Sequence record: MK327930.1
Source: Escherichia phage EdH4
Strand: one strand, 5' to 3'
DNA: 64,000 nucleotides
Numbering within the stretch: the stretch's first letter is position 1; the number at the start of each line of letters is the position of its first letter. The notes below the pieces were generated by a model. That model worked only from the letters and a program-made list of their open reading frames with translations, was not told the origin of the DNA and searched no databases. Below, piece after piece: positions 40,631-60,252 of the stretch. The position numbers and the translations under genes are program-made.

Positions 40631-40894
40631 ATGGCAACAGAGTTAAAATTTGCATCAAACCGTAAAACTAAGAAGTATCTGTCCTCAGTAGCTCCAGGCA
40701 CTGTGGTGATGTTTGTTGATGAACTTGGGGATGTGAATACAGCACTTGTTGTAAAATCACATCCTGCAAACATATATGTTGGGGTATTTGACCTGTTCAG
40801 AAAGGTGTTTGTAGAACTGCCTCACAGTTTGGTTGTTACAGAAATGGATGCCTGCATAGAAATTCTTGGCGAAGTTATGGTGGAGGAACAATAA
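40631..40894 (+). CDS. Small protein, tandem paralogue family 3 (member 1 of 4)
   Basis: 87 aa; shares the pattern K..F..G.VV...D...V.K.....VF.L..........VTE.D..I.ILGE with the next three genes. Confidence 0.6.
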   Translation: MATELKFASNRKTKKYLSSVAPGTVVMFVDELGDVNTALVVKSHPANIYVGVFDLFRKVFVELPHSLVVTEMDACIEILGEVMVEEQ

Positions 40895-41157
40895 TGGCTA
40901 CCAGCATTGTATTCAATTCTAAGGTGAAGAACAAAAAGCGTGCAGACAGTTTTCCGTGTGGGACCGTGGTAAGTTGCGACGGAGACGGCATTCAAAACAT
41001 AGTTATGATTGTCAAAACAGGAGAACATTGTGTGTGGGGGTTCGATTTAGAAAATAATGAGTTGTACGATCTGCCGCCAAACATGAAAGTTACAGAGCTT
41101 GACACCAAAATTACCATCCTTGGAGAGACAAGCTATTCAAAAGAAGGAGGAGAATAA
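40894..41157 (+). CDS. Small protein, tandem paralogue family 3 (member 2)
   Basis: 87 aa; TAATG overlap with the previous gene. Confidence 0.6.
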   Translation: MATSIVFNSKVKNKKRADSFPCGTVVSCDGDGIQNIVMIVKTGEHCVWGFDLENNELYDLPPNMKVTELDTKITILGETSYSKEGGE

Positions 41158-41420
41158 TGACCACAAAAATCACTATCGCAGAACCGAAAGCTAACACTCA
41201 GCCTATCGAAAAGTTTAAGTGCGGTGAGGTGGTAACATTCACACCAGATAATGAAGATGCTAAGATTTTCGCAATGGTCACAGCTGAGTGGATGTGTGAC
41301 AACACCACACAGGTTCTGCGTTTTGACACCTACCTTACAGATGAAATCAGGAACGATAAGATCGTGACTGGTGTAGATACTGAAATTATTTTCTACAAGA
41401 GCTTTTTAGAGGGTTTCTAA
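41157..41420 (+). CDS. Small protein, tandem paralogue family 3 (member 3)
   Basis: 87 aa; TAATG overlap with the previous gene. Confidence 0.6.
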   Translation: MTTKITIAEPKANTQPIEKFKCGEVVTFTPDNEDAKIFAMVTAEWMCDNTTQVLRFDTYLTDEIRNDKIVTGVDTEIIFYKSFLEGF

Positions 41421-41421
41421 T

Positions 41422-41658
41422 ATGGCGAAAATTCGTAAATTATCCAACAATCAGGTTGTTAAAGATTTTGAACCCGGGGAGATTCTGTATGTTCGTGATG
41501 CAGATGACGAAGGAGAAGATCTTGTTATGCTGCTAGGACACGCTGCTGAGGACGGATGCATCCAGGCTGTTTTTCTTGAAACAGCTATGGTGCACTGGAT
41601 AGAGCTGGACATGAAAGCACGAAAACCTAAAGCAGAAATCCTGATTTACGAAGATTAA
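41422..41658 (+). CDS. Small protein, tandem paralogue family 3 (member 4, divergent)
   Basis: 78 aa; conserved FEPGEILYV...VFLETAMVHWIELD. Confidence 0.55.
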   Translation: MAKIRKLSNNQVVKDFEPGEILYVRDADDEGEDLVMLLGHAAEDGCIQAVFLETAMVHWIELDMKARKPKAEILIYED

Positions 41659-48100: not shown

Positions 48101-50799
48101 GGATTTACCCTTGCCTGACGCGGAGGGTAACCTGTAGTTTGGTTAAACCACAAATTACAAGAGTAATCCCTCATATAGTCATAATCAGAGTATTTGTTTG
48201 CATCCTCGTTCCAACACATGTTCAGGTTGGTACCGCCCATGCATACAATATATTCTGCGACATACTTATCACTTCTGGTAGGAATACCTATGAACCATCT
48301 GTTAACAGGTTCATCCCAAGCTGTGCGCTCATCTTTAACGCAGATAGCAATCCAGTCATGTGTTCCTGTTTTCTTGCACACATCCCGCTTCATACCATAG
48401 TAGAACTCTTTAGTATTCGGCTCAGGTGCATTTATCAGGTAACTCCATGCCTGATTTGCATAAGTTCCATTGGTGCGTGGATCATGATCAAAGGCATACA
48501 TGATGATCCTTTCCCCACCAAGATGTTCGCCAAGAGTAACTTTGACATTCACATCGCCGTAACCATTGCGAACAACATCCATATTGTCAATAGATATACC
48601 TCTGGGAGTGTAGGCAATCTTCAGTGAGTTATCCTCACTAGTGCCACCAAGTGTAATCCCTATGTTGTTTGTTGTCCCATCGGCATATCTTACTGTAGCT
48701 TCCCAGCGTATTCCGAAATATCCTACATCATGGCTGACAATTTTCAGTGTACGAGCGCCAGGGTGAGGTTTTCCAGGATCAGGCCAAGGGTCTGGGTGTT
48801 CGTGGACAGTCAACGACGTTCCGTTTTGCTCGTTAACCTGCAACATTTTACCACCTCTGCCGTTAGGGTTGAACTCCCATACGGCCTGTGTCTGCACCAA
48901 GTTGTTGTAGGTATTTCGTCTCTGATCATAAATCTCTTGGGTAACATCATAAGTGACTGATCCAGCATCCATTCTGTGGAGTCGGACCATATACGATGTA
49001 TCCCCTTCTACTGCAGGCTGAGTCCCATTCAGTCCGAAGTATACAGTATCGTTAACATGGAACTGCTTGTTTCTACCAACGGTATGCCACTTGCCGTTGG
49101 ACGGATACGCAGGAACTATGGTGTTCCAGTTCAAAGTCCTTGTTGTGTGAGTTCTGCCTGTGCCATGCTTGTCATGATAGGTTATTTTTACAGAGTACAG
49201 GCCACGTCTGTTAACATTTCTGTTATACTGGGTAACAACAACTTCATTGGCCCCGCCGTGGTTCCAGTTGGTGGAGAATTGGTAATTTGCATCTGTAACA
49301 ACCGTACCTGCAGCATTCACCAGTTCAATCTTGTCAATGATGAACGTAGCTCCCTCTGGCTGAGGCTTCAATTTCATCTTGACCGTGTCACCAATGTAGA
49401 TATTGCTAACACTGCTAACACCATTAACGTCGAAAATATCATCAACGCCCCAACTGTCTACTGGGACATTTTTATACCAATTCTCAGGAACCTCTGTGAA
49501 CCCCTGACTATTAAGTCTGCCGCCAAACAGGTTATTAGAGCCTGTAAAACTTCCCCTTGGGATACCTGACCACCAAAGTTTACCATTAACAACAGTAAAG
49601 GTCCCTAAGAAACCTTCTCTGTGGATGCCTTGGAAATAAACACTCTCTGTCCAGCTGACTGGCAGGCGTTGCTCAACATATTTAGCTGTAGCAAGAGCTT
49701 GATAGTGGATAAAATCGGCCCTAGGACTATTGTTTGCAGATTGTGCACCAATATCATTACATAAGTTGCGAGAGAACCCACGATACTGCTTAGTGCCATT
49801 ATTGAAGAAAATGCCACTTGTGCCGTACCCACGAGCCATCATTACCTCATGGGTGTAGGTGATATTCAGTTCCCGCCATGTATCATCTCCCCAAATGTTT
49901 TGACCATAAAATACGTTAACAAGCTGCTGGTCATCGGGTCTATGCATCCTCTGTGTAGCAATTACTGCCCCGTTAGGACCACACATAAACCCTTTCCACT
50001 CCTCATCTGCAGGAATGCCCCTCAAATCGTTACGAGTAATCTGCACAGGAGGCCAAACAAGGTCGTTTCTACTGTTATTTCTCAGAAAGTCGTATCCAGC
50101 AATCCAGAAACCCCTAGGACCACCGAAAATAACAGAGTTGTCATGCACCTCACAGTTGATGCTTGGGTTTTTCCAAGGGCCTGTTTCAGGATCTTCCGAT
50201 GTCTCACCAATCTTTACAGGGGTTGCATGCTGATTTTTATCTACATGCAAAGATCCGTAGGTGTTGTTACCAGATCCATACAGGTTAAGTATGCCAGCAC
50301 CTTCTGCCTCTGCAATAACCCAGACAGTGTTGTTAATACCGCCCATCACCTCAATAAGGCGTTCTGGGTGGGTGTCAAGGTGCAATCCTTTAACAATCTG
50401 CTCTGGGAGTGGTGTCCACTCGTTTACGCAAACATCATTACCGCCTGCCGCAGTGGATCCGATAAGACCTGCAGTGCAGCCGATGTAGAAAAACTGGTTA
50501 TCAAAAGTCCGGATCACAAACGCGCGGTCTGCTCTCCACACATGATCAACATTCCAGGCTGTTTCGCTCGGATAGTTTATAGGGCTACGATCCCCAGTGC
50601 GGCACTCTCCGAACTTGTTATAGCCAGTAATATTAAGCTGACCATCATCAAAAAGTATAGCTAAGCTATTTACATAGGATACTGTGTTGCTTGTACCATC
50701 ACTGTTGTCTATTGGGTATGACAGAACAGCAAGTTCCTTAATTCCACCCCTCTTATCGAGGAAATGACGACCAAGTTTTAGCAAAGGGATTGGAAGCAT
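45163..50799 (-). CDS. Very large tail fibre or host-range protein with C-terminal Ig-like (BIG2-type) domain
   Basis: 1878 aa; C-terminal NVSGIRKTWESSNTNIATVDAATGLVTFKATGNVTIKFVVTDDAGRKTSSTSFTV resembles a bacterial Ig-like fold; last gene of the tail module. Confidence 0.6.
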   Translation of the reverse strand: MLPIPLLKLGRHFLDKRGGIKELAVLSYPIDNSDGTSNTVSYVNSLAILFDDGQLNITGYNKFGECRTGDRSPINYPSETAWNVDHVWRADRAFVIRTFDNQFFYIGCTAGLIGSTAAGGNDVCVNEWTPLPEQIVKGLHLDTHPERLIEVMGGINNTVWVIAEAEGAGILNLYGSGNNTYGSLHVDKNQHATPVKIGETSEDPETGPWKNPSINCEVHDNSVIFGGPRGFWIAGYDFLRNNSRNDLVWPPVQITRNDLRGIPADEEWKGFMCGPNGAVIATQRMHRPDDQQLVNVFYGQNIWGDDTWRELNITYTHEVMMARGYGTSGIFFNNGTKQYRGFSRNLCNDIGAQSANNSPRADFIHYQALATAKYVEQRLPVSWTESVYFQGIHREGFLGTFTVVNGKLWWSGIPRGSFTGSNNLFGGRLNSQGFTEVPENWYKNVPVDSWGVDDIFDVNGVSSVSNIYIGDTVKMKLKPQPEGATFIIDKIELVNAAGTVVTDANYQFSTNWNHGGANEVVVTQYNRNVNRRGLYSVKITYHDKHGTGRTHTTRTLNWNTIVPAYPSNGKWHTVGRNKQFHVNDTVYFGLNGTQPAVEGDTSYMVRLHRMDAGSVTYDVTQEIYDQRRNTYNNLVQTQAVWEFNPNGRGGKMLQVNEQNGTSLTVHEHPDPWPDPGKPHPGARTLKIVSHDVGYFGIRWEATVRYADGTTNNIGITLGGTSEDNSLKIAYTPRGISIDNMDVVRNGYGDVNVKVTLGEHLGGERIIMYAFDHDPRTNGTYANQAWSYLINAPEPNTKEFYYGMKRDVCKKTGTHDWIAICVKDERTAWDEPVNRWFIGIPTRSDKYVAEYIVCMGGTNLNMCWNEDANKYSDYDYMRDYSCNLWFNQTTGYPPRQARVNPAIFTDTQVFLTKQANEVQTFKNNYDPNKWFYNCYGAYFWGPAELPDSGSCFEAATYGSDYIMGQVKKYKMIPGPETLGNAVDPYINFAALHANMDGARYPFDVPVANGYRRVVMIIKCDLIGKQVLAENGTSTHPFEVALHYQFADSPYAGDKRISDTDSKRCKKVLLGAGWWWYEFDLTDKFTDDTKTLTGIRLDLGENMHKAVCDGTYGDPTVYLKYVSLEHPEDAVIGPKLKLFGSWIAKDRIGMGKKVRGFLIDAGTEDMLVNAVWPTLEGTAYNNAARSINWFNIHRAMWTTNCYLWRELNDQAFGFSDGRRMAIICWTTLQRCYDHDYEIGGRAWKDIRDRVIYNFADDNGGGAYNFGTSRLIHLNGSSAYKKEGYSGSMIEWGLVKDARVLMGQQLAAAIGPSAVQSAKPAWFDIPLWSSGTPGAAAINPTTGDLEISWEDLKQVGGWDKTGYQVQWWRADGSLAADEFVKDNFYTMSSAKAQELFGQATPSTITMSMCCKDNRTGALGPRVAKVFSGIKWNLPVQSISWKQIGDNKLLVTPACQFNATLNVDPAVAANSAKASDFSVSNTAMADVRKIDTLNARITCKNTYGTFQIINNFTDADSKVVRTASQTLSLGTLAYAALITEQSATLQGGGVGKSITTPVWKPNEWVVFDLTVDFSSDNNWTWVRNCLSQLMGGPSAVSDSHDSTDPSVFQVGKTHPETGETLPDRKYALVCISYGKADVTFSGTHTYNGTYNFSRKYSLKAGNIVDEVGVLYNPGNGIGIVGGKLQMQEPSITPSNVSGIRKTWESSNTNIATVDAATGLVTFKATGNVTIKFVVTDDAGRKTSSTSFTVKQMAPQWRMWIGTATNGAYPNPAGTSGMKTFSTSKPMEYGSGPKVGQMVYFGAYIPEIIGLPRSQLQLLFGAGVDDLATFGYSDNIEAARSSGWVGFRMESGKEGRILGTASIGVMFPGDQQYRLEAYATFSR

Positions 50800-50810: not shown

Positions 50811-50840
50811 GATAAGAAAACCGCCCCGTCAGGAGCGGTT
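50811..50840 (-). terminator. Putative terminator between the 581-aa fibre gene and the 1878-aa gene
   Basis: aaccgc-N10-gcggtt hairpin followed by T-rich sequence on minus. Confidence 0.45.
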
Positions 50841-50847
50841 AGATATA

Positions 50848-52593
50848 TTAACGTTGTGCAATTACTACGTCTACGATATCACCAACACCACAATACGTTA
50901 ATTGCAGCAAGGTAACACTGTTAGCCTTGTTGTTAATAACAGGTGTTGCCGACAGGATAGCATACTTATCGTGCAAAGTCACGTTGTGACCTACAGCATC
51001 CTGAATTACATAGATAACCGCAGTGAATGGATAAGGTTTATCTTCCGCTGATGTCCCAGGCCACTGCCCTATTGTAAAATCCCCTTTAGCGTGGACAACA
51101 TACATACTGGCCTGCCCGTTAGGTGTCCATGTCCCACTGGACGCGTCAACCTCCTCTAAATCGAAATCTACCTTCCCTGCGTGGAAAGTAGGGGCAGTGA
51201 TGGTTTTACCAGCCTCAATTTCTTGAGAGGTGGTTATCTTACCACTGGAGTTAATGCCATTACAAACAAAGTTGACATTAGAGAAGTCTGGCAGCCACCC
51301 GGTCACTGTGCCGGATATTTCAAGATTGTGAAGGTGGGTGGTGCCAGTCCCTGCGGCGTTTAAACTAACATCTCCATTTACCTGCAAGTTTCTGGTAATG
51401 TTGCAGTTTTCAGAGTTTGCAGTTGTTGCAGTTAAAGTGGTGGTGGTCAGCTCGGTAATTGTACCTCTATTGGCTGTAAGCCCTTCTCCTTCAAAAGTTG
51501 CACGCTCATTGACTCTTAGAGTATTCAGAGCTATATTTTGGATAGAGGCTGTACCTCGAATAACTACAGACCCGCCAACCTCCAAATCGCCATTTATCAA
51601 TGCATCACCCGTGCTTTCAATATAGCTAGGGTAGATCATGGTGCCATCGACAGAGTATGTTATCCCTGTAACGGTACCTGTCACCTCAAGGTTCTTAACC
51701 CTGGTGGTCCCATCGACCTGCAATGTCGGTTCGGTTGCTGCCTTCATGGCATTACCACGAATGTACACGTAGTCAAAAAAGTTATTACCTAGACCATCAA
51801 AATGCACATCGTTATTATTAGCCACTGGTTTCCCAGAAGTTATAGTGTCAGCTATAATCCTGTGGGTGGACACTTCATGAGGTTGCAGCTCTGTGCTTCT
51901 CCAGTCTGCATGCTTAGGATCGCTCCACGCAAAAGTAAGTGTAGAAGTATTTGCCGTGAGGATTAGATTCCTGAAGCGTGCAGTAGAATCTGCTCCATTA
52001 ACAGGCCCATGTAAGGTGAGGGTGCCACCGACTATGGTGTTAGCGAGTTCTGTAAGACCTTTTACCACCAAAGACCCTACAGTAACTTTCATCCCCTCCA
52101 TGGCTTTAAATATACTATCAACATAGTCAACAACAAACTCTGTGTTTGCTATGGACTCTGACTTATCGTCCATTGGAGGTGTAGGTACTCGCGGGTCACC
52201 TTCGAACCTCGGGCTGTTAAGTTTTGCGTAGTATTTTGCCATTACTGCAGAGTCGGTATATAATCTCCAGTTTGGAGATTGTGAAGGATCTGCTGGCATT
52301 CTAACCGGGTTAGATTTTGATGCTGCGGGAGCGTACCACCACTGAGGACCTGTATCCCCCTTAAACTCATACAGCTGGTTAAAAACTGTTGTGGATGCAC
52401 CATACGCCCAAGGGATCGGTGGCGTTTTAAAATAAAGGGTGTCAAGCATGGCTTTTCGTACCGTAGGGATGGTGGTCCCATCCTCTACGACAACTTCATC
52501 CACAGCGTTACCGTTGACAATCAGGTGCAAACGTTCAGAATCAACAATTACTTGATCTACCGCCTGCTCAAAGCTTGTCATGTCTTGCGCCAT
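50848..52593 (-). CDS. Tail fibre protein with beta-helix-like repeats
   Basis: 581 aa; Thr/Gly/Asn-rich repeats (TLQVDGTTRVKNLEVTGTVTGITYSVDG...). Confidence 0.6.
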   Translation of the reverse strand: MAQDMTSFEQAVDQVIVDSERLHLIVNGNAVDEVVVEDGTTIPTVRKAMLDTLYFKTPPIPWAYGASTTVFNQLYEFKGDTGPQWWYAPAASKSNPVRMPADPSQSPNWRLYTDSAVMAKYYAKLNSPRFEGDPRVPTPPMDDKSESIANTEFVVDYVDSIFKAMEGMKVTVGSLVVKGLTELANTIVGGTLTLHGPVNGADSTARFRNLILTANTSTLTFAWSDPKHADWRSTELQPHEVSTHRIIADTITSGKPVANNNDVHFDGLGNNFFDYVYIRGNAMKAATEPTLQVDGTTRVKNLEVTGTVTGITYSVDGTMIYPSYIESTGDALINGDLEVGGSVVIRGTASIQNIALNTLRVNERATFEGEGLTANRGTITELTTTTLTATTANSENCNITRNLQVNGDVSLNAAGTGTTHLHNLEISGTVTGWLPDFSNVNFVCNGINSSGKITTSQEIEAGKTITAPTFHAGKVDFDLEEVDASSGTWTPNGQASMYVVHAKGDFTIGQWPGTSAEDKPYPFTAVIYVIQDAVGHNVTLHDKYAILSATPVINNKANSVTLLQLTYCGVGDIVDVVIAQR

Positions 52594-52602
52594 GATTTCT
52601 CC

Positions 52603-52869
52603 TTAAGCTTTTTGCTCTTCGTTTTTAACGTGGTCAGGGTGCTGGCAACCCCACCGGAGCGAGATGAATTTGCTAATAAGCTGGGGGCAAGCTACTGAAG
52701 GCGCGTATATCCACGCATACCATTCAGGAAGCGTATCATTATACCCCATATGAATAAACACCCCAGTCATCACCGCCATGCCTATGTTCGACCATAGCTT
52801 AGATTGGGACACTTTCGTAGGGTCATCAGATGCCGCAACCAGTCCCCATAAAAACTGAGTTAGTTTCAT
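52603..52869 (-). CDS. Small membrane protein embedded in the tail-fibre module
   Basis: 88 aa; hydrophobic segments LWGLVAA and IGMAVMTGVFIHM. Confidence 0.5.
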   Translation of the reverse strand: MKLTQFLWGLVAASDDPTKVSQSKLWSNIGMAVMTGVFIHMGYNDTLPEWYAWIYAPSVACPQLISKFISLRWGCQHPDHVKNEEQKA

Positions 52870-52880
52870 TTACCCTCTTT

Positions 52881-53927
52881 TTAAGCATAAGATATAGTGA
52901 TCCATTGACCATTTACAAGTTTTTGGATAGCACCTGTCCAGTAATCACCTTGATAAGGGTGTTTATAAGCGTAGTTGCCAGAGCACATCACATGTCCAGG
53001 GTAGACTCTTGACTCTCTGTAGGTGGTTTTGAAACGGTTTGCTATCCTTACATCGTCAACCCCTCTGCTGGGCATAGGGATAGTAAGGTTACCACTACTG
53101 TCTGCGCTGTTACCGTTTACCCTGCGGACCACGTTTCTTCCACCAACGGTTGCATATTGGCCTCTAACGGTTTCATCGTTACAATCAACTCTTCCACCTA
53201 TTTGAGCGCTTCCGCAGGATTGTTGTCCGTTAACAGTGGCTCTTGGTATCGTGACCGCATTGGCATTTGCAGAGGAACTTTTTGCATCGTTGCATTCAAG
53301 ATTTCCTTGGATAGCTAGTCTTGCACGGTTGGCAGTTATAGCATTGAGCTTCATAGCCGAAAACACAGGCTGCCCACCAGAAGGTTGAAATCTCCAACGG
53401 AACCCGTCTATTTGGTGAGAAGGATCATCAAGGTCTGTGCCGTCAGCACCACCGATGTTGTCCATAATCCAGAAATCCATCGTCGTCTTGTCTGGCGTTA
53501 TGGTGGTATATATTGCCGCACTGTCTGTTGACGCAGATGCAAACTCGATTCTTTGAAGACCTAAAGTTTGAGTCTGAGTCATTATGTCTCCGGACTTGTC
53601 AATATATAGATCGTCCATTTCTTCAGGCGAGTATACATTGAGAACTTGACGTGCAGCAGCTTTGTCTGGAACGTCTGCTAGATTATTAGTGACCCTTAAG
53701 AATCTATTATCCCATCCTGGGACAACATCTTCTGTTAAATGCTTTAACCACGCAGAAAGCATGTGAAGTTCAAAGTTAACAACTTCACATGCCACTCTTT
53801 GTGTCATATCCCAACCTTTCAATCTCTCTTCTTTTTTTGGTTGAGACTTATTCAACTCTCCCGTATTTTCAAGCACAACATCCTGATTGGCCCAAATATC
53901 AAGAGGGATAACTGGTTTAGTCATCAC
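52881..53927 (-). CDS. Receptor-binding tail fibre protein, paralogue B
   Basis: 348 aa; conserved N-terminus (KPVIPLDIWANQD) and C-terminus (QKLVNGQWITISYA) shared with CDS 54939..55979; centre divergent. Confidence 0.65.
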   Translation of the reverse strand: MMTKPVIPLDIWANQDVVLENTGELNKSQPKKEERLKGWDMTQRVACEVVNFELHMLSAWLKHLTEDVVPGWDNRFLRVTNNLADVPDKAAARQVLNVYSPEEMDDLYIDKSGDIMTQTQTLGLQRIEFASASTDSAAIYTTITPDKTTMDFWIMDNIGGADGTDLDDPSHQIDGFRWRFQPSGGQPVFSAMKLNAITANRARLAIQGNLECNDAKSSSANANAVTIPRATVNGQQSCGSAQIGGRVDCNDETVRGQYATVGGRNVVRRVNGNSADSSGNLTIPMPSRGVDDVRIANRFKTTYRESRVYPGHVMCSGNYAYKHPYQGDYWTGAIQKLVNGQWITISYA

Positions 53928-54013
53928 GTTCTCCTGAGAAAATTCCTTAGGACTATTTTAACACTTTAGGGAACAAAATGCAAGAACGGAGTCCTTTCCG
54001 TTCTGACCTTTGT

Positions 54014-54328
54014 TTACCTTTTACTATGCTCTACGAGCATGTGCAAAATCTTTTGTACATCGGCTCTGATGCCGGAGACATCTGTCCTGACATCCTGCTT
54101 AAGGTCGTTAATATCGGCCTCTAGCTTGCTTAACCGGGTCTCTATAACGGAATCAAGTTTATCTTTTGTAACCATACTGTTTTTCACTAAGATGAGGTCT
54201 TTCTCCAGCTCATCCAACCTCTTGGAAATGCCTTTCCATTTGGTGTGCCACTGGTTGAAAGCCCATACACAGATCGGGACAACGGTACCCATGCAGATAC
54301 CGTACAATGCCGCCAAATCCAACTCCAC
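54014..54328 (-). CDS. Small membrane-anchored coiled-coil protein
   Basis: 104 aa; TM helix LAALYGICMGTVVPICVWAF then coiled coil. Confidence 0.5.
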   Translation of the reverse strand: MELDLAALYGICMGTVVPICVWAFNQWHTKWKGISKRLDELEKDLILVKNSMVTKDKLDSVIETRLSKLEADINDLKQDVRTDVSGIRADVQKILHMLVEHSKR

Positions 54329-54339
54329 AACACCTCCTC

Positions 54340-54924
54340 TTAGAGGGTAGGTCGCTCCGGGAAGAAAATGTCAGGGGCTTTAGATGTATCTATTTCAAGA
54401 AGTTTTACCCTGTACATTTTCAAATCTCTGATGTTACGTTTCTGGTCATCAGTAAGATCATATTCAAGGTCAATCATGTCTTGATAGGCACCAATTCTAG
54501 CAGTAGCCCAAGCAAGTTCTGTCTCTATGACACCCTCTGCCTGTTGAACAAAGAATTCATTGTCTGTGACAAATTCATCACCAACTAAACGCAAAGCGTC
54601 GTGGTGAAGCATAATGTTTTCTGGTACCTCTTCTTTTTTGGCGATAACCACACGAAGACCTGGAGCAGGCCATAAGGCATCAGGTTCTTCTGTAGATGTC
54701 TTAAGAATTCCCTTCTCGTCAACAAGTAGGAAGATACACCCTGGATTTTCTTGTCGTAATGTTCGTGACTGCACATACCAATCACCATCATCATTACGTA
54801 AAAAATACCCAGTGTATGCGGTGTAATCCTCGACCTCTTGAGGGGTCAGCTCCTTGGTTTCCTTATTGGAGTGGTATTCGCCAGATCCCGGTTGGTAAAG
54901 TTTAAACTCTTGAAGTATTTTCAT
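54340..54924 (-). CDS. Tail fibre assembly chaperone (Tfa-like)
   Basis: 194 aa; C-terminus YRVKLLEIDTSKAPDIFFPERP matches the lambda Tfa / P2 gpG C-terminal signature. Confidence 0.7.
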   Translation of the reverse strand: MKILQEFKLYQPGSGEYHSNKETKELTPQEVEDYTAYTGYFLRNDDGDWYVQSRTLRQENPGCIFLLVDEKGILKTSTEEPDALWPAPGLRVVIAKKEEVPENIMLHHDALRLVGDEFVTDNEFFVQQAEGVIETELAWATARIGAYQDMIDLEYDLTDDQKRNIRDLKMYRVKLLEIDTSKAPDIFFPERPTL

Positions 54925-54938
54925 GCTAGTCCTCCGAT

Positions 54939-55979
54939 CTATGCATAATTAACAGTGATCCATTGACCATTTACAAGTTTTTGTAAAGGTCCTGCCCAGT
55001 AGGTTGAACCACGCATCTCTTTTTTGTCACCGAAATGCCAGCCTGTGACAACGTATCCGTTGCGGATTGGGGATTCAGAAACGCCGTCCACAAGTCTTGC
55101 ACCGATTCTGATGTCTTGCACACCTGTCTGCGGGATAGTGATCGTTACATCACCGTTACCGTTAGCCGTCACTCCATTCACGGAGCGCACCACATTTCTG
55201 TTACCGACAACACAGTGCTGGCTTCTTACAACCATACTGTCACAACTTGCACCACCATTAACATATACTGACCCAGCCGTCAACTGACTGGCCACATTAC
55301 AGTTGGTGAATGTTGCTGTATTGCTGATAGTAAGGTTATTGCACCTCATGTTATCGACAACTTCAACATTGCCTACCACTTTCAACAGCGCACGATTAGC
55401 CGTGATCGCGTTAAGGTACATCAAAGTGAACTCTGGATTAATATCCGGCTGAGTTGGCTGGAATCTCCAACGAAACGCATCTACTGTAGATGTACCACCA
55501 TCATCAAACGACCCGGTATTATCACTTAGCCCAAAGTCGAGGGTTGTCTTATCTGGGCCAATAGTTGTCTCTATCCAAGCCTTATCTGTCTCGGCAGCTT
55601 TAAAGTTGATACGTTGCAACCCCAAGGGGCCTGTCATTGTATCACCTGTAACTTTTACATACCTGGCGTCTGCCTCTTCCTTAGTGATAATCCCAAGGTT
55701 TCTACGGGCAACAGGAATGTTCAAAAGATCGCTCAAGTTATTATCACGTACCAGATAACGGCCTTCTTGAGCTGGGATCTGCTCGTCAGCAATGTATTTT
55801 GCCCAAGTCCCGAGCATATTGAAAATATAGTTAAGTTCTTCACATGAGGGCTTTTGACCAAGATCCCAACCTTTTCTCCACAAATCATCAATCGGGCGTA
55901 GCCTGTTCTGTCTGTGGGTGTTAGGCAGAACCTGATCCTCCTCTGCCCAAATCTCTAATGGAAAACTAGGTTTTGACAT
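54939..55979 (-). CDS. Receptor-binding tail fibre protein, paralogue A
   Basis: 346 aa; C-terminus PLQKLVNGQWITVNYA resembles the P2 gpH tip; followed by Tfa. Confidence 0.65.
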   Translation of the reverse strand: MSKPSFPLEIWAEEDQVLPNTHRQNRLRPIDDLWRKGWDLGQKPSCEELNYIFNMLGTWAKYIADEQIPAQEGRYLVRDNNLSDLLNIPVARRNLGIITKEEADARYVKVTGDTMTGPLGLQRINFKAAETDKAWIETTIGPDKTTLDFGLSDNTGSFDDGGTSTVDAFRWRFQPTQPDINPEFTLMYLNAITANRALLKVVGNVEVVDNMRCNNLTISNTATFTNCNVASQLTAGSVYVNGGASCDSMVVRSQHCVVGNRNVVRSVNGVTANGNGDVTITIPQTGVQDIRIGARLVDGVSESPIRNGYVVTGWHFGDKKEMRGSTYWAGPLQKLVNGQWITVNYA

Positions 55980-55991
55980 TTTATCTCCTGA

Positions 55992-58064
55992 TTATGAGAA
56001 GTCTGGCGGGACAACATCTTCTACATACCCTTTCAGAGCAACCTGCCCCATATGAAGCACGGTAGAATCTCTAGCGGTAACAGTGATGCTGTCAGACATT
56101 ACTTGCGGGTATGCCCACACATACTGTTTTACCTCAGGATATCTATACTCTATAGTTGCCATGTTTCCGCAAATACATCTCCATAAAAATTCTTGGTAAT
56201 TCCTGGTTGGGTCGTAACCATATACCGGAGCAAGCTCTTTACTAGGAACGAACCCTGCAAGGTATTGTATTTCAGACGGTTGCCAACCTAACTTAACGAT
56301 AGGTATGTTTACAGACTCTTTTGCCTTTTCAATACCTCCCTGCATCACCCAATCGTAGCACTCGGTGCAGAAGAAATCAAGAGCACCTGCTTCCTTTTTA
56401 TATTGGTCAGCAAGGTTAAGCTTTTGCGTAAGCTCGGTTTCCATAATGGTTGGGAAAAACAGCAGAGCTGTCATCTGAGCTGATGCAGCGTGTGCCTTTA
56501 TTGCCTTTGAAATAGCCGCAATACGAGCGCCAAGCTTACCACGACAAAATGCTACATACTTATCGTAAACACCGCCAGTTTTAGGATCGTCAATAGTCCC
56601 AATATCTAATGCATACTCGCCTGTCTCATCATAAAACGCCTGTTTTGTAGGGTAATCATAAATACAAGGTCTACGAGTATCGGTATTGTACCACCACCAC
56701 GGTTCACCAACCTGCATAATCACTGGCAGGTTGTTTCTCATAGCGGCTGATGCAAAATTCTTAAATACTGCAGTAAGGAAATTCATACCCTCTTCAATGG
56801 TTGGAGACAGGAGGTAGCTACAAGGTGTATACCCTGTTTTAGCGTAGTTATCGTTCCAGTCTCTTTGGGTCCATTCCAACGGGCAGGCATCGCTGAAAAG
56901 CTCAAAACTTACAGATTGCATAACGTCGAAGTTATGTCGTTTGGCATTGTACATAAAATCATCATGCCATTTATAAGCTGCAGCGTTTAGCGCTCCTGTT
57001 CTGTTTATAGACCATTGGGTTCCTGACCATGTGTAGTCATAATAATGACTCATACCAACATAATGGTTTATGGTTCCGGTATAGCCCAGACGCTTGATAT
57101 TGTTCAACACCCTTAAAGGAGACACGTTCCACATATCGTCATATGCGGTGCAGATCCCAACATCGTGCTCTCTCACCTGGATATTGTTAAGTTGCATCAT
57201 TTTCCAGCCTGTGTCTGGCTGAAGCAGATCTAGGCGCAACTCACACTCTACATTTTCCGTTCTCGGGTCTGTGCTATTACTTACCCAGTCTTTAGGCATA
57301 AGCGGTATTAAAATCCTTCTCACCTGCCGAGGATCAACACCCATCATGTTGTTGTTCTGATCCATCCCGACGCAGTCCTCAAAATCAATATGAATTTCTG
57401 CAACATTCTTATCCTCTGAGATGCTGACAGCATATTGAGCTAAAGGAACATAGATGATTGTGCCATCAACAAGGTCTACAGTCATAATCATCTTTTCAGG
57501 AGTGGAGAAGTTGCTGGCGTTGGTTATTGACATTCTGAACCAAAGCTTGGTGTTTCTCATCTCATAGTGATCATCAAACCCAATACCGAAATGGTCATAC
57601 TTGTCAACTGTTTCCCAAATGCACCCAGCCATACCTCCATATGTTCTTGACACTAAACGGTTAATACAACAGTTGTTATCTGCAACAATACAGGTACTTT
57701 CAGTCTGCTGAGTGGTTGTAACCCAATATCTTGGGTGAAACATTCTCTCCTCAACAGTATCCCAAGATATCCTGTCAAGATTCTCATCTGAAACTATTGT
57801 ACATTTCGCCCTTTGTGTTCCAATCATCACCCCTTGAGATTTTGATGAAAACTCCATAAAGAAGCTTCTTGGCAACCTGTTGGGTAATTTGTCAACAATT
57901 TCCACGGGGATCTCAATACTGGTTGCCCCAACTGGGATAGTTACATCGCCCTCAACATGATCATAATCCCTACCAGGAACGGCAGTATCCTGAACTGTTC
58001 GGTAATGAAACCGTGCAGCCATTGTAGAGTAATCACGGTAAGGTTTAAAAACAGCTGTTGCCAT
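55992..58064 (-). CDS. Tail-associated structural protein (possible carbohydrate-active domain)
   Basis: 690 aa; N-terminal beta-sandwich-like segment then a large Trp/Tyr-rich domain; no confident family. Confidence 0.55.
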   Translation of the reverse strand: MATAVFKPYRDYSTMAARFHYRTVQDTAVPGRDYDHVEGDVTIPVGATSIEIPVEIVDKLPNRLPRSFFMEFSSKSQGVMIGTQRAKCTIVSDENLDRISWDTVEERMFHPRYWVTTTQQTESTCIVADNNCCINRLVSRTYGGMAGCIWETVDKYDHFGIGFDDHYEMRNTKLWFRMSITNASNFSTPEKMIMTVDLVDGTIIYVPLAQYAVSISEDKNVAEIHIDFEDCVGMDQNNNMMGVDPRQVRRILIPLMPKDWVSNSTDPRTENVECELRLDLLQPDTGWKMMQLNNIQVREHDVGICTAYDDMWNVSPLRVLNNIKRLGYTGTINHYVGMSHYYDYTWSGTQWSINRTGALNAAAYKWHDDFMYNAKRHNFDVMQSVSFELFSDACPLEWTQRDWNDNYAKTGYTPCSYLLSPTIEEGMNFLTAVFKNFASAAMRNNLPVIMQVGEPWWWYNTDTRRPCIYDYPTKQAFYDETGEYALDIGTIDDPKTGGVYDKYVAFCRGKLGARIAAISKAIKAHAASAQMTALLFFPTIMETELTQKLNLADQYKKEAGALDFFCTECYDWVMQGGIEKAKESVNIPIVKLGWQPSEIQYLAGFVPSKELAPVYGYDPTRNYQEFLWRCICGNMATIEYRYPEVKQYVWAYPQVMSDSITVTARDSTVLHMGQVALKGYVEDVVPPDFS

Positions 58065-58750
58065 TAACCCTCCTGTCTAGTTGCGTTTACTGTAATACTT
58101 TCACAATAAATGGTTGTGGTGTCCCAATCAGGTCTTACGTCAGGAACATACAGCAAAGTAGCCAGCCCACCAACTCCAAACTGGTTTTCTTCCCATACTG
58201 ATCCGAAGCCAAGAGCTGTAGAGTCCCCTTCAAAACCAAAAGCTTGCCCTTGCGATTCTGTAAGACGCAAATGACAAGGCAATGGTAGCATATCTAAGAT
58301 CTGATCGATAGACTGCAATATGTCAAAGCAAGTTTTTCTAATATTTATGTCAAACCTGAAGTTGTCTCCTTTCCACGTATCGAAATTGTCTCTTCCGAAC
58401 AATTGTCGCAAGGTGGAGATGACATCTTCGCGAGTCCCGCCCCTTGATGCTGCGGCCTGCTGAATAATTAGTGTGGCACGAAAATCAGCATCTGAAAGTC
58501 CATTCCTAAGAATACCAAGTTGATTACCAACTTCGTCAAGGTATCTTCCGCTGGCATTGTTAAGCAATCTTCCTTCAGCCAAACCTACCAGCATCTTATC
58601 AACATCCTCCAACCTTTTAAGGTATACGGTTAAGAATGTGACTAAATTAACCTTCTCAGCCAGAAAATCTCCAGGCAGGTAGTCAAGACCTCCCTGAACA
58701 AAATCTGGCAGAGTGTGGATGTGGTTAACATCCGACTTAATCTCTGCCAT
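58064..58750 (-). CDS. Putative baseplate or tail-fibre-associated protein
   Basis: 228 aa; position equivalent to P2 gpI after a baseplate-J-like gene; sequence similarity not confirmed. Confidence 0.5.
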   Translation of the reverse strand: MAEIKSDVNHIHTLPDFVQGGLDYLPGDFLAEKVNLVTFLTVYLKRLEDVDKMLVGLAEGRLLNNASGRYLDEVGNQLGILRNGLSDADFRATLIIQQAAASRGGTREDVISTLRQLFGRDNFDTWKGDNFRFDINIRKTCFDILQSIDQILDMLPLPCHLRLTESQGQAFGFEGDSTALGFGSVWEENQFGVGGLATLLYVPDVRPDWDTTTIYCESITVNATRQEG

Positions 58751-58761
58751 ATCTCGCCGCC

Positions 58762-60252
58762 TTAAATAGTTTGTTGGAAAGTTATATTACTTTCGTCGAG
58801 GTCAAACACCTCAGTCATGTTCGCAACAATATCGTTTGTAGTGTAAGCTTCATCAGAAGCTCCTACGGATTTAACTTGAATTACCAGTCTATTAAATCTG
58901 CCTATTGACACAGCAGCAGATGCAGCACCTACCAATTGGATATTATACAACGTATCTGCAACATCCAGTCCGTTAACAACCTGCAAAAGAGCCTCTATAA
59001 TGGCATCTTTTTCGGTTGTGGAAAGCGCAGCACCGGAGTAGGTAATTCTCATATCCAGGCGGTAGGTATTTGCCTTGGAGTAATAAATTCTTTCAGTCTG
59101 ACCGTCAGATGTAGTGACATCGTAGAAAATATTACCATAAGTCCTGTTCGTACAGGCTATAGTTTGGTAAAGTGCCTGGCAGATATCCTCTGTTGCACCA
59201 CCAAACACCACCACTTGAAACTTATAAGGTGGTATACCTTTCGCATCCGTTTTATCGGTGTTGTTAGAGAACACTCTTACTTTCTCAACACCTTTCACCT
59301 CGCTTACAGCGCTAAGAATTGCAGGACGGGTAGCCTTAGATGTTAACTGTTTTGTGCTGGAAGCTCTTAAGCGATACTCTGAGTCTTTCTCAACATCCCT
59401 GCCCTCATTGAATCTTTCTCTGTTGGTAAGCTTGATAAATCCACTGGGAGTAGGTGACATTGTTGTCACGGTTTCTGCCTCTCTTGACAGCTCACCAGCC
59501 TCGTTAGCGATAACATCCAAGGTGATAGTTCTTTCCCCTACAATCGGGGATACTCTGAAATCTACCCTGCTATTAAGTCCAACTTGATCAAGATTTGAAT
59601 TGTACCCTATCCACAACGTTCCTGTCAACATATCGATCTGAATCAAATCGTCGTTCAACAGAGTTGTATTATCGACAATGAATTGCTTAATCTCTCCGTA
59701 AAAGCTTGGCAGATCAGAAGAGTCCAGAGCCTTATCTGTTAAAACCAGACTTTTTGTTTTGATACTTCCATCTGTCTGGTTGGTAATTTGAAAGTTGTAT
59801 TTACCAATCCTTAGGTCTGGAGCATTTATTCTGTGAGCAATAAGATTCCCTGCTACTTGCACATCATTGCTAAGAACAAAGTTGCCACTATCCAACGTAT
59901 AAGTTTTGGAATCGTAAATCATATTGTACGGCACAGTTGTGTTGATCGTCAACTGGCAGGTACCTGATGATTTAGAACGGCCTCTTCGGTAAATACCTCG
60001 TCTTCCAAGAAGTTCGTCTAGGTAAATACCTTCTGCCCCATACAGCGTTTGTGATGCGTACACAGATGCTGCCATAAGAATAAGTTGATACTCTCGCTCG
60101 TTGAAAATAGTGGTCAGCTTATCTGCAACGGAGTTACTTTGTACGTTGAAGTTTTCGCCAAAAGCACGGATCAGGCTTTGCTTAGTTTCAACGATTAGGT
60201 CATTTAGGGTTGGTATAACGAAACCAGCCTCTGTCAATCCATACTTAGCCAC
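58762..60252 (-). CDS. Baseplate J-like protein
   Basis: 496 aa; block VEKDSEYRLRASSTKQLTSKATRPAILSAVSEVKGVEKVRV parallels recalled P2 gpJ ESDTDYRLRIQQAF...GRVADISV. Confidence 0.55.
   Translation of the reverse strand: MAKYGLTEAGFVIPTLNDLIVETKQSLIRAFGENFNVQSNSVADKLTTIFNEREYQLILMAASVYASQTLYGAEGIYLDELLGRRGIYRRGRSKSSGTCQLTINTTVPYNMIYDSKTYTLDSGNFVLSNDVQVAGNLIAHRINAPDLRIGKYNFQITNQTDGSIKTKSLVLTDKALDSSDLPSFYGEIKQFIVDNTTLLNDDLIQIDMLTGTLWIGYNSNLDQVGLNSRVDFRVSPIVGERTITLDVIANEAGELSREAETVTTMSPTPSGFIKLTNRERFNEGRDVEKDSEYRLRASSTKQLTSKATRPAILSAVSEVKGVEKVRVFSNNTDKTDAKGIPPYKFQVVVFGGATEDICQALYQTIACTNRTYGNIFYDVTTSDGQTERIYYSKANTYRLDMRITYSGAALSTTEKDAIIEALLQVVNGLDVADTLYNIQLVGAASAAVSIGRFNRLVIQVKSVGASDEAYTTNDIVANMTEVFDLDESNITFQQTI

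What the first reader, a model, noticed from the sequence alone, without database searches (positions are those of the whole stretch)
52603..54328. Small membrane proteins embedded in the receptor-binding module
An 88-aa hydrophobic protein (52603..52869) and a 104-aa protein with one TM helix and a long coiled coil (54014..54328) lie between the fibre genes. Small membrane proteins beside receptor-binding genes are classically receptor-masking or superinfection-exclusion factors (as in the T5 llp-oad arrangement). The TM-plus-coiled-coil architecture would also fit an i-spanin-like lysis protein.
Basis: inference. Interest (0 to 1): 0.45.

Follow-up and report, generated by a model that had tools for sequence, protein, structure and literature searches.

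The report
Probable lysis membrane proteins among fibre genes
Two small, highly conserved genes sitting between the tail-fibre genes of this rV5-like coliphage are real, but they look less like receptor-masking or spanin proteins than like inner-membrane lysis-control proteins related to the phage Mu "releasin", making them candidates for the holin function that has never been found in this phage group.

Summary
The window is a Vequintavirus (rV5-like, 98-99% identical). The two ORFs are rV5 gp29 (88 aa) and gp31 (104 aa). Both are real genes: they have Shine-Dalgarno sites, dN/dS is 0.03 or lower, and homologues exist from Aeromonas to Escherichia phages.

- **gp31:** one N-terminal TM helix, predicted N-out/C-in, followed by a cytoplasmic helical domain. 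Its invariant MVTKDK motif matches the trimeric beta-layer coiled-coil motif.
- **gp29:** only weakly hydrophobic.

Receptor masking of the T5 Llp type is not supported. The receptors are glycans, neither protein has a lipobox, almost nothing of gp31 faces the periplasm, the predicted promoters are late, and there is no co-variation with the fibres. The i-spanin reading is rejected: the topology is opposite, no o-spanin ORF is present, and rV5 carries canonical spanins elsewhere.

The best reading is that these are remnants of an ancestral three-gene membrane cassette (gp31, a 4-TM protein, gp29) that acts in lysis.
- gp31 has the build of Mu gp25 releasin (DUF2730) and a moderate profile similarity to it (hhalign 85%).
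- Remote family members lie next to endolysins or spanins, or in the Mu gp25 slot.
- gp29 weakly resembles DUF2644, which sits between the endolysin and DUF2730 in Mu-like prophages.

No holin is known for these phages. All of this evidence is computational. Confidence is about 0.45.

The parts
54014..54328 (-). gp31 homologue, 104 aa, GTG start. A single-pass membrane protein with a helical cytoplasmic domain. It is the last gene of the predicted late unit gp36-gp31, directly after the tail-fibre assembly gene.
54257..54316 (-). gp31 transmembrane segment, residues 5-24. The N-terminus is acidic (MELD) and the C-side junction is basic (TKWKGISKR), which predicts N-out/C-in.
   Evidence: KD 1.9; across 54 family members the N-side charge averages -1.26 and the C-side +0.26, with C>N in 43 and C<N in 2.
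54158..54175 (-). gp31 residues 52-57 (MVTKDK), with the invariant Thr54. The motif matches the beta-layer consensus [aliphatic]-A/V-T-K-[polar]-x of trimeric alpha/beta coiled coils.
   Evidence: conservation; helix break at 52-54; best PDB hits 5APW/5APX, motif aligned; PMC4786415
52603..52869 (-). gp29 homologue, 88 aa. A small, weakly hydrophobic protein with a charged C-terminal tail, and the most conserved protein in the cluster.
52747..52806 (-). gp29 residues 22-41, the single 20-residue helix and candidate membrane segment (LWSNIGMAVMTGVFIHMGY).
53983..54004 (-). Hairpin 10 nt after the gp31 stop codon. It is terminator-like with a weak T tract.
53940..53976 (-). Match to rV5 predicted late promoter P030 (core TGTTAAAATA at 53954-53963), upstream of gp30-gp29-gp28. 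It is conserved in relatives whose fibre and gp31 proteins are only about 50% identical.
54340..54924 (-). gp32, tail-fibre assembly protein (Caudo_TAP), immediately upstream of gp31.
52881..53927 (-). gp30, a second short-fibre paralogue (43% identical to gp33). It occupies the position where other genera carry a 146-157 aa 4-TM gene between the gp31-like and gp29-like genes.
50819..50840 (-). Terminator after gp28 (rV5 t028), marking the end of the gp30-gp29-gp28 unit.

Best explanation
gp31 and gp29 are the two surviving genes of an old three-gene inner-membrane cassette (gp31-like, a 4-TM protein, gp29-like). In this phage group the cassette follows the short-fibre chaperone gene and is expressed late with the tail genes.

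The cassette most likely acts at the membrane step of host lysis, not in adsorption.
- **gp31** inserts with its N-terminus out and its roughly 80-residue helical domain in the cytoplasm. It probably forms a parallel trimer through a coiled coil interrupted by a beta-layer. This is the same build as the phage Mu gp25 releasin (DUF2730).
- **gp29** is a small partner with one or two weakly hydrophobic helices and a charged cytoplasmic tail, resembling a class II holin or antiholin (DUF2644-like).

Together they would control when the soluble lambda-R-type endolysin, encoded far away, gets across the inner membrane. That would supply the holin or holin-regulator function that has not been identified in rV5-like phages.

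What is shown: the genes are real and conserved, and their architecture, predicted topology, synteny, remote profile similarity and contexts in other lineages are as described. What is inferred: the oligomeric state, late expression, and any role in lysis.
For: 1. **Same build as Mu gp25.** Both are about 100 aa, with a roughly 4-residue acidic periplasmic N-terminus, an N-terminal TMD, a basic junction and a helical cytoplasmic domain.
2. **Profile-profile similarity.** hhalign of 54 gp31-family sequences against 8 DUF2730 sequences gives Prob 84.8%, P 6.6e-6 and score 36.4, collinear from end to end. A heptad-block permutation null with the TM region kept fixed has mean 24.3 and maximum 32.9 (0 of 150 reach the real score). 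The cross-family control scores 9-13.
3. **Contexts of remote members.** A HMMER profile of the family searched against 1.84 billion proteins finds 48 clusters. Of 12 remote members whose contigs were read:
   - P0131 overlaps the start of a soluble Amidase_3 endolysin, which is followed by an Rz-like spanin. P0131 is the only TM protein upstream.
   - P0135 is followed by a 2-TMD 80-aa protein and then an Rz-like spanin.
   - P0141 lies two genes after a Peptidase_M15 endolysin.
   - P0148 sits in a Mu-like transposable phage exactly in the gp25 slot (Mor, P0148, a gp26-like gene, Gp27).

4. **gp29 and DUF2644.** A gp29 homologue is named DUF2644 in nr. In Pasteurellaceae Mu-like prophages DUF2644 sits right after the endolysin and, in 59 of 95 loci, within about 0.4 kb upstream of DUF2730. 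hhalign of gp29 against DUF2644 scores 22.0, against a shuffle null of 11.2 +/- 2.7 (1 of 150 reach it) and a cross control of 12.8.
5. **No holin is known.** None has been identified in rV5 or LL12. The main endolysin is soluble and so needs one. The authors of phi92-like BME3 independently nominated its 81-aa gp29 homologue as a class II holin.
6. **Late expression.** Predicted late promoters serve both genes.
7. **Precedent.** In T4 the holin gene t directly follows the fibre chaperone gene 38.
8. **Not seen in the virion.** No gp29 or gp31 peptides appear in the rV5 virion MS data, and the phi92 homologues gp144 and gp149 are not among the components modelled in the cryo-EM structure.
Against: - hmmscan does not place gp31, its homologues or remote members in DUF2730, nor gp29 in DUF2644.
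- The hhalign signals are moderate (85%) and weak (12%). They could reflect convergence of a TM helix, a coiled coil and a helix break.
- Mu gp25 acts on a SAR endolysin and is not a holin. rV5's main endolysin has no SAR domain.
- About five of the 12 remote contexts are again at the end of tail-fibre clusters, one is in a replication region, and two are uninformative.
- gp29's hydrophobic segment is below the usual TM threshold in this phage.
- rV5 has other holin candidates, gp129 and gp90.
- Both AF2 models are low-confidence (pLDDT 58-59).
- There are no expression or genetic data.
Confidence: 0.45

Rival explanations
1. They are membrane-associated morphogenesis factors. gp31, and perhaps gp29, would help fold, trimerise or attach the neighbouring short fibres. 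gp31's trimeric coiled coil would serve as a membrane-tethered template or chaperone, analogous to small coiled-coil fibre chaperones such as T4 gp57A (recalled from memory).
For: - gp31-like genes sit directly after the fibre and Tfa genes throughout Vequintavirinae, Stephanstirmvirinae and Plateaulakevirus, and in several remote metagenomic relatives.
- The beta-layer trimer motif is typical of phage fibres.
- One GenBank record annotates gp29 as a fibre assembly protein.
- Both genes are co-expressed late with the fibres, by prediction.
Against: - The fibre already has a dedicated Caudo_TAP chaperone.
- A conserved TM anchor has no known role in fibre assembly.
- Other family members lie in lysis cassettes or the Mu gp25 slot, with no fibre gene nearby.
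- In phi92-like phages the gp29 homologue follows a different spike gene and precedes the wedge gene.
- The position after fibre genes is also where holins lie in T4.
Confidence: 0.15
2. They are superinfection-exclusion proteins that act at the inner membrane. They would block DNA entry by secondary phages, like T4 Imm or P22 SieA, rather than mask a receptor.
For:
- PHROG files gp29 under 'moron, auxiliary metabolic gene and host takeover', with no functional evidence behind that label.
Against: - The promoters are predicted to be late, whereas exclusion needs early expression.
- gp31 exposes about 4 residues to the periplasm.
- The receptors are glycans, so nothing can be masked in the Llp or Cor manner.
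- There is no lipobox.
- Strong purifying selection and conservation across hosts fit a core function rather than an arms-race moron.
- PADLOC was not searched, so nothing can be said about matches to defence models.
Confidence: 0.1
3. gp31 is an i-spanin-like protein that bridges the inner and outer membranes at the last step of lysis.
For: It has an N-terminal TMD followed by a coiled coil and is about 100 aa long.
Against: - The topology is predicted to be N-out/C-in. The phage's real i-spanin (rV5 gp67) shows the opposite charge pattern (N +2, post-TMD -2).
- rV5 has an overlapping pair, gp66 (lipobox LLCGC) and gp67, next to the terminase gene. LL12 has the same pair, annotated by the CPT.
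- No lipobox ORF on the coding strand lies within or next to gp31.
Confidence: 0.02

Closest known systems
Phage Mu gp25 'releasin' (Pfam DUF2730; Chamblee et al. 2022, PMC9239132)
   Same: - About 100 aa, with a roughly 4-residue periplasmic N-terminus, an N-terminal TMD, N-out/C-in topology, a basic junction and a helical, acidic cytoplasmic domain.
- Collinear profile similarity (hhalign 85%).
- Late gene.
- One member of the gp31 family occupies the gp25 slot in a Mu-like phage.
   Different: - gp31 is not recognised by the Pfam model.
- It is found in large virulent myophages, inside the fibre cluster and far from the endolysin.
- The main endolysin here is soluble, not SAR.
- gp31's central motif is a canonical beta-layer (MVTKDK), whereas DUF2730 has (L/I)P(T/G)xxD(L/V).
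DUF2644 small membrane proteins of Mu-like Pasteurellaceae prophages
   Same: - Both are 75-90 aa, with a short polar N-terminus carrying the K/R-x-S-x-T motif, a hydrophobic helix, a PE(W/L) turn, a second helix and a charged tail.
- Both are paired within about 0.5 kb with a DUF2730-type gene.
   Different: - The similarity is weak (hhalign 12%, score 22).
- The DUF2644 helices are much more hydrophobic (KD 2.3-2.7 against 1.05-1.3).
- DUF2644 itself has no demonstrated function.
T4 holin gene t, positioned after fibre chaperone gene 38 (and T7 gene 17.5 after fibre gene 17, recalled from memory)
   Same: A late lysis membrane-protein gene placed directly after the tail-fibre or chaperone gene and far from the endolysin gene.
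   Different: - T4 T is 218 aa and N-in/C-out, with a large periplasmic domain.
- There is no sequence relationship to it.
T5 Llp / phi80 Cor receptor-masking proteins
   Same: Small genes beside the receptor-binding genes.
   Different: - Llp is an outer-membrane lipoprotein that blocks the protein receptor FhuA (established knowledge).
- Here there is no lipobox, the proteins lie in the inner membrane with a cytoplasmic bulk, the receptors are glycans, and the promoters are late.
Two-component spanins (lambda Rz/Rz1; rV5 gp67/gp66)
   Same: A TMD followed by a coiled coil, in a protein of about 100-130 aa.
   Different: The topology is opposite, there is no o-spanin partner, and the phage already has its own spanin pair.
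Beta-layer (alpha/beta) trimeric coiled coils, including the DUF1640 membrane proteins (Hartmann et al. 2016, PMC4786415)
   Same: - The [aliphatic]-A/V-T-K-[polar] motif interrupts a heptad coiled coil.
- Like DUF1640 proteins, gp31 is an integral membrane protein with this motif in its stalk.
   Different: - Only the motif is shared. No family-level homology was tested.
- The trimeric state of gp31 is inferred, not shown.

Membership tests
DUF2730 / Mu gp25 releasin | About 100 aa, with an N-terminal TMD in N-out/C-in topology and a helical cytoplasmic domain | tested here: met
   compared
DUF2730 / Mu gp25 releasin | Match to Pfam PF10805 above the gathering score | tested here: not met
   There is no hit for gp31, for 3 divergent homologues or for 39 remote members. 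The positive controls hit: Mu gp25 at 2.5e-13 and Pasteurella ORF18 at 2.5e-27.
DUF2730 / Mu gp25 releasin | Profile-profile homology | tested here: inconclusive
   hhalign gives Prob 70-85%, P 4e-5 to 7e-6. The score exceeds the reversed, column-shuffled and heptad-block nulls (z about 3), but the Prob value falls short of the ~95% conventionally taken as confident homology.
DUF2730 / Mu gp25 releasin | [quoted passage not shown] | tested here: not met
   In this phage gp31 lies in the fibre cluster and the endolysin is about 49 kb away in rV5 coordinates. Remote relatives do meet this feature.
DUF2730 / Mu gp25 releasin | Partner SAR endolysin whose release depends on it | tested here: not met
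   rV5 gp89 is lambda-R-like with no N-terminal hydrophobic segment. The SleB-like hydrolase at window 33377-33877 has a strongly hydrophobic signal or anchor, which was not resolved. Functional dependence is not testable here.
Holin (class II-like), for gp29 | A small protein with one or more true TMDs and a charged C-terminal tail | tested here: inconclusive
   The charged tail is present. The best hydrophobic window scores 1.05-1.27 in this phage and 1.6-2.0 in some homologues.
Holin (class II-like), for gp29 | Late expression, lethal hole formation triggered by energy poisons, and a requirement for endolysin release | not testable with these tools
   Only a predicted late promoter is available.
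DUF2644 | Match to Pfam PF10841, or profile homology | tested here: inconclusive
   hmmscan finds no hit. hhalign gives Prob 12% and score 22.0, against a null of 11.2 +/- 2.7 (1 of 150 reach it). One nr record carries the name.
i-spanin | N-in/C-out topology with a periplasmic coiled coil | tested here: not met
   The positive-inside analysis gives the opposite orientation in 43 of 54 family members. The real i-spanin control behaves as expected.
i-spanin | A cognate o-spanin lipoprotein gene, embedded, overlapping or adjacent | tested here: not met
   No lipobox ORF lies on the coding strand in 52400-54500. The genuine pair is elsewhere in rV5.
Llp/Cor-type receptor-masking exclusion protein | A lipoprotein or periplasm-exposed protein that binds an outer-membrane protein receptor | tested here: not met
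   There is no signal peptide or lipobox. The receptors are ECA and an LPS-core glucose.
Llp/Cor-type receptor-masking exclusion protein | Allelic co-variation with the cognate receptor-binding protein | tested here: not met
   gp29 is 80-100% identical where the fibres are 49-73% identical. The cassette is kept across phages of Escherichia, Salmonella, Klebsiella, Cronobacter, Pectobacterium and Aeromonas.
Beta-layer trimeric coiled coil | The motif [aliphatic]-A/V-T-K-[polar]-[DE] interrupting the heptads | tested here: met
   The motif is invariant or nearly invariant in the family alignments. It aligns to MATKDD in 5APW and 5APX. The consensus comes from PMC4786415. The trimeric state itself is not testable here.

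The most novel reading that the evidence does not exclude
The gp31 family (at least 48 clusters at 50% identity, none covered by Pfam) is an unrecognised, widespread class of single-pass, N-out/C-in lysis proteins with a trimeric alpha/beta coiled coil. It would be evolutionarily tied to the Mu releasin, and in rV5-, phi92- and PVP-SE1-like phages it would be, alone or with gp29, the long-missing holin or lysis timer. That would extend the releasin/DUF2730 kind beyond transposable phages and to phages with soluble endolysins.
Probability: 0.25. Interest if true: 0.65.

Novelty: new variant of a known kind. Interest (0 to 1): 0.42.

Why it matters
rV5-, phi92- and PVP-SE1-like myophages are among the most frequently isolated coliphages and Salmonella phages considered for therapy, yet their lysis system is incomplete on paper. 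The endolysin and spanins are known, but no holin is.

If gp31 and gp29 control the membrane step of lysis, that gap would close. It would also show that releasin-like proteins are not confined to transposable phages and can work with soluble endolysins. And it would give a simple handle (two small genes) for engineering lysis timing.

There is a practical gain for annotation too. These genes are currently labelled variously as 'tail fiber protein', 'lipoprotein', 'large surface anchored protein' or 'tail fiber assembly protein'.

Tried and rejected
- **Family scans.** Pfam, PHROG and NCBIfam scans of gp29, gp31 and their homologues gave only family-internal PHROGs and generic coiled-coil noise.
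- **Pairwise comparison.** BLASTP and single-sequence hhalign of gp31 against Mu gp25 were marginal (E 0.04 and 0.016). A DUF2730 profile had to be built from six further Mu-like phages.
- **Widening DUF2644.** Attempts to add diversity failed. All 108 loci from genome and viral collections are at least 70% identical Pasteurellaceae prophages, so that comparison stays weak.
- **Other proteins tested.** The 4-TM gene of other genera has no relative in this window and no similarity to Mu gp19. The 80-aa 2-TMD protein next to a remote gp31 relative is not related to gp29.
- **Structure prediction.** The AF2 models of both proteins were low-confidence. Fold searches were therefore not run, since they would be meaningless.
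- **Proteomics.** The rV5 virion MS tables contain none of six expected tryptic peptides. This is weak negative evidence only.
- **Literature.**
  - The PVP-SE1 and phi92 primary papers are not held.
  - The O177 'proteomics' paper is in silico only.
  - A search for Vequintavirus holin or transcriptome work gave nothing usable.
- **Not done.** PADLOC was not searched.
Full report
**What the window is.** The 2.1-kb region around the finding is 98-99% identical to more than 100 Vequintavirus genomes, including rV5, Murica, LL12 and the BASEL Bas55-59 phages. Transcription on the minus strand runs from high to low coordinates. The gene order is:
- baseplate J (58762-60252)
- gp35 (58064-58750)
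- gp34 (55992-58064)
- short fibre gp33 (54939-55979)
- Caudo_TAP chaperone gp32 (54340-54924)
- the 104-aa ORF, gp31 (54014-54328)
- short-fibre paralogue gp30 (52881-53927)
- the 88-aa ORF, gp29 (52603-52869)
- fibre gp28 (50848-52593)
- the 1878-aa fibre gp27 (45163-50799)

**Checking the observation.**
- Each has a strong Shine-Dalgarno site.
- Against a 95-97% relative, gp31 has dN/dS 0.028 and gp29 has dN = 0 at dS = 0.20. gp29 stays 80% identical in a lineage where the fibres have dropped to 49-73%.
- tblastn finds gp29 relatives in 368 phage records and gp31 relatives in 223. They span Vequintavirinae, Stephanstirmvirinae (phi92, phAPEC8) and Aeromonas Plateaulakevirus.

gp31 is as described. 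It has one clear TM segment at residues 5-24 (KD 1.9) followed by long helices.

gp29 is less 'hydrophobic' than stated. Its best 19-residue window scores 1.05, and the rV5 authors' TMHMM/Phobius scan did not flag it. Homologues in other genera reach 1.6-2.0.

**Synteny.** In Seunavirus (PVP-SE1), Certrevirus (CR9), Mydovirus-like phages, Aeromonas phage 2L372D and many metagenomic relatives the order is:

short fibre, Tfa, gp31-like, a 146-157-aa 4-TM protein, gp29-like, next fibre.

The 4-TM gene overlaps the gp31-like stop codon by 4 nt. Vequintavirus, and a related gut lineage whose gp31 is about 50% and gp29 about 80% identical to the window's, have replaced the 4-TM gene with a second short-fibre paralogue, gp30, which is 43% identical to gp33. 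phi92- and phAPEC8-like phages have no 4-TM gene at this locus. They keep the gp31-like gene after Tfa and have the gp29-like gene in front of the baseplate wedge gene. The two ORFs are therefore what remains of an old three-gene membrane cassette, not independent insertions beside a receptor-binding gene.

*Receptor masking of the T5 Llp type:*
- The receptors of these phages are ECA and an LPS-core glucose, not an outer-membrane protein (PMC8594841).
- Neither protein has a signal peptide or lipobox.
- By the positive-inside rule gp31 is N-out/C-in, with about four residues in the periplasm. Across 54 family members the N-side charge averages -1.26 and the C-side +0.26, with C>N in 43 and C<N in 2.
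- The rV5 authors predicted late promoters upstream of gp36 (P036) and in the gp31-gp30 gap (P030). The P030 motif is present here at 53940-53976 and is conserved in diverged relatives.
- The proteins do not co-vary with the fibres.

*i-spanin:*
- rV5 has a canonical overlapping pair next to the terminase gene. gp66 carries the lipobox LLCGC, and gp67 has a basic N-terminus, a TMD and a coiled coil. The LL12 announcement annotates the same pair.
- gp31's charge pattern is the reverse of gp67's.
- No lipobox ORF exists on the coding strand in or beside gp31. The only lipobox-like pattern lies in an antisense shadow ORF.

**What gp31 looks like.** Its build matches that of phage Mu gp25, the 'releasin'. 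Mu gp25 is 99 aa, with four periplasmic residues, an N-terminal TMD, N-out/C-in topology and a 73-aa cytoplasmic domain. It is required to release Mu's SAR endolysin from the membrane (PMC9239132).

The evidence for and against a family relationship is mixed:
- HMMER does not place gp31 or its relatives in Pfam DUF2730.
- Pairwise scores against Mu gp25 are marginal.
- A profile of 54 gp31-family sequences against a profile of 8 DUF2730 proteins from Mu-like phages gives hhalign Prob 84.8%, P 6.6e-6 and score 36.4, collinear over the whole length.
- A permutation of heptad blocks that keeps the TM region in place gives mean 24.3, sd 3.8 and maximum 32.9, so 0 of 150 reach the real score.
- For the smaller 28-sequence alignment (real score 32.1, Prob 70%), reversed profiles score 20-21 and column shuffles average 10.4.

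I read this as probable but unproven remote homology.

Independently, the family's invariant central motif (MVTKDK here, YATKAE in phi92) fits the beta-layer consensus [aliphatic]-A-T-K-[polar]-[DE] of trimeric alpha/beta coiled coils. The best PDB matches of the family profile are the GCN4-MATKDD(IAN)-GCN4 trimers 5APW and 5APX, with the motif aligned. The AF2 monomer breaks its helix exactly there. The cytoplasmic domain is thus probably a parallel trimer, which is an inference. The same motif is also a caveat: part of the DUF2730 similarity could be convergent.

**Context in other lineages.** A HMMER profile search of 1.84 billion representative proteins found 48 clusters. Almost all are 100-115 aa with the same TMD-helix-VT(K)xxL-helix plan. 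I read the contigs of 12 remote members and typed their neighbours.
- **Lysis settings (four members):**
  - P0131 overlaps by 4 nt the start of a soluble Amidase_3 endolysin, which is followed by an Rz-like spanin. P0131 is the only TM protein upstream, so it occupies the classical holin position.
  - P0135 is followed by an 80-aa 2-TMD protein and then an Rz-like spanin.
  - P0141 lies two genes after a Peptidase_M15 endolysin.
  - P0148 sits in a Mu-like transposable phage between Mor and the gp26-like and Gp27 genes, exactly where Mu has gp25. It also scores hhalign 64% against DUF2730.
- **End of tail-fibre clusters (about five members):** as in rV5.
- **Replication region:** one member.
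- **Uninformative:** two members.

A position after fibre genes does not argue against a lysis role. In T4 the holin gene t directly follows fibre-chaperone gene 38.

**What gp29 looks like.** The family has a conserved core and a variable, charged C-terminal tail that is sometimes extended. The core pattern is:

K-x-S-x-T-K-x-W-x-x-x-G-x-x-x-M-T, then P-E-W, then L-R-W-G.

One homologue is labelled DUF2644 in nr, so I looked for that family. I found it in Pasteurella Mu-like phage AFS-2018a as the 75-aa gene immediately after the amidase endolysin. It is followed by DUF2681 and then DUF2730. Among 95 Pasteurellaceae prophage loci, 59 have a DUF2730 gene within 1.5 kb downstream (median gap 375 nt) and 67 have the amidase directly upstream.

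hhalign of gp29 against DUF2644 is weak:
- Prob 12%, score 22.0.
- The column-shuffle null is 11.2 +/- 2.7, and 1 of 150 shuffles reach the real score.
- The reversed profile scores 9.9.
- The alignment is collinear, including the PE(W/L) turn.
- The cross-pairings are lower: gp29 against DUF2730 scores 12.8, and gp31 against DUF2644 scores 9.0.

The authors of phi92-like BME3 independently nominated their 81-aa gp29 homologue as a class II holin, on topology prediction alone.

**Putting it together.** rV5-like phages have a soluble lambda-R-type endolysin and spanins, but no identified holin. The two ORFs have these properties:
- They are core genes under strong constraint.
- They are predicted to be late.
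- They are inner-membrane proteins with their bulk in the cytoplasm.
- Their peptides are absent from the rV5 virion MS tables, and their phi92 counterparts gp144 and gp149 are not among the proteins modelled in the cryo-EM structure.
- Each resembles, one moderately and one weakly, a different member of a gene pair that co-occurs in Mu-type lysis cassettes.
- Relatives of gp31 sit beside endolysins and spanins in unrelated phages.

The most economical explanation is that they act at the membrane step of lysis, as a holin, holin partner or releasin-like factor.

I put this at about 0.45, for these reasons:
- The homology signals are sub-threshold.
- Mu gp25 is not itself a holin and works on SAR endolysins.
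- gp29's membrane segment is weak in this phage.
- rV5 has other holin candidates, gp129 and gp90.
- Nothing has been tested experimentally.

The rivals are a membrane-tethered fibre-assembly role (0.15), inner-membrane superinfection exclusion (0.10) and i-spanin (0.02). The remaining probability goes to functions not yet imagined.

**Novelty and score.** The ORFs themselves are long known as hypothetical proteins. What is new is:
- the recognition of the ancestral three-gene cassette;
- the releasin-like architecture and beta-layer trimer motif of gp31;
- the lysis-cassette contexts of remote relatives;
- the DUF2644/DUF2730 parallel.

If correct, this would be a new variant of a known kind, namely releasin- or holin-type lysis proteins outside transposable phages. 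It is directly testable with two small knock-outs. Interest is 0.42.

Noticed in passing
window 54158-54175 (-), gp31 residues 52-57: The invariant MVTKDK motif (YATKAE in phi92-type homologues) matches the beta-layer motif of trimeric alpha/beta coiled coils. The best PDB hits of the family profile are the GCN4-MATKDD constructs 5APW and 5APX. The same profile also hits 700-1250-aa proteins with 3-10 repeated stretches (P0109, P0117, P0128).
   Followed up: partly
window 53940-54004 (-), the gp31-gp30 intergenic gap: A hairpin (53983-54004) lies right after the gp31 stop codon. It is followed by the rV5 'late promoter' motif TGTTAAAATA (53954-53963). The TTGCAT-17 nt-TAAAAT arrangement is conserved in relatives whose fibre and gp31 proteins are only about 50% identical, which suggests a transcription boundary inside the fibre cluster.
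   Followed up: partly
window 52881-53927 (-): gp30 is a second short-fibre paralogue, 43% identical to gp33, with no chaperone gene of its own. It sits exactly where other genera carry a 4-TM membrane-protein gene. This looks like a gene replacement within the cassette.
   Followed up: partly
window 33377-33877 (-): A SleB-like cell-wall hydrolase (rV5 gp2) next to rIIA begins with MKIKIFAIILSALLSLPVVAA, which is a signal peptide or signal anchor. It is a secreted or membrane-tethered second muralytic enzyme, and its relation to lysis control is unknown.
   Followed up: no
window 40631-41658 (+): Four abutting small ORFs of 87, 87, 87 and 78 aa. The first two are 39% identical (E 6e-12), and the last two are weakly similar (E 1.6e-4). 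This is a tandem paralogue family of unknown function in the plus-strand early block.
   Followed up: partly
GenBank records MG0656xx: Between 16 and 21 records named 'Campylobacter phage' are at least 98% identical to this E. coli Vequintavirus region. They are probably mislabelled or contaminant genomes.
   Followed up: no
L004 9933-10274 (phage BME3); phi92 gp149: The gp31-like protein of phi92-type phages is annotated 'lipoprotein' (also PHROG 15210), yet the BME3 sequence checked contains no cysteine. gp31 itself is variously annotated 'tail fiber protein' or 'large surface anchored protein'. These labels look like misannotations.
   Followed up: yes
L068 2738-3669 (Pasteurella phage AFS-2018a) and 95 Pasteurellaceae prophage loci: Mu-like prophages carry a conserved run of amidase, DUF2644, DUF2681 and DUF2730. 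No function has been assigned to DUF2644 or DUF2681, although they occupy the holin and spanin positions.
   Followed up: partly
L011 2110-2316 (rV5 gp90, outside the window): A 68-aa protein with an N-terminal hydrophobic, Cys-containing segment lies directly after the rV5 endolysin and has its own sigma-70-type promoter. It is another unassigned candidate lysis or envelope protein.
   Followed up: no
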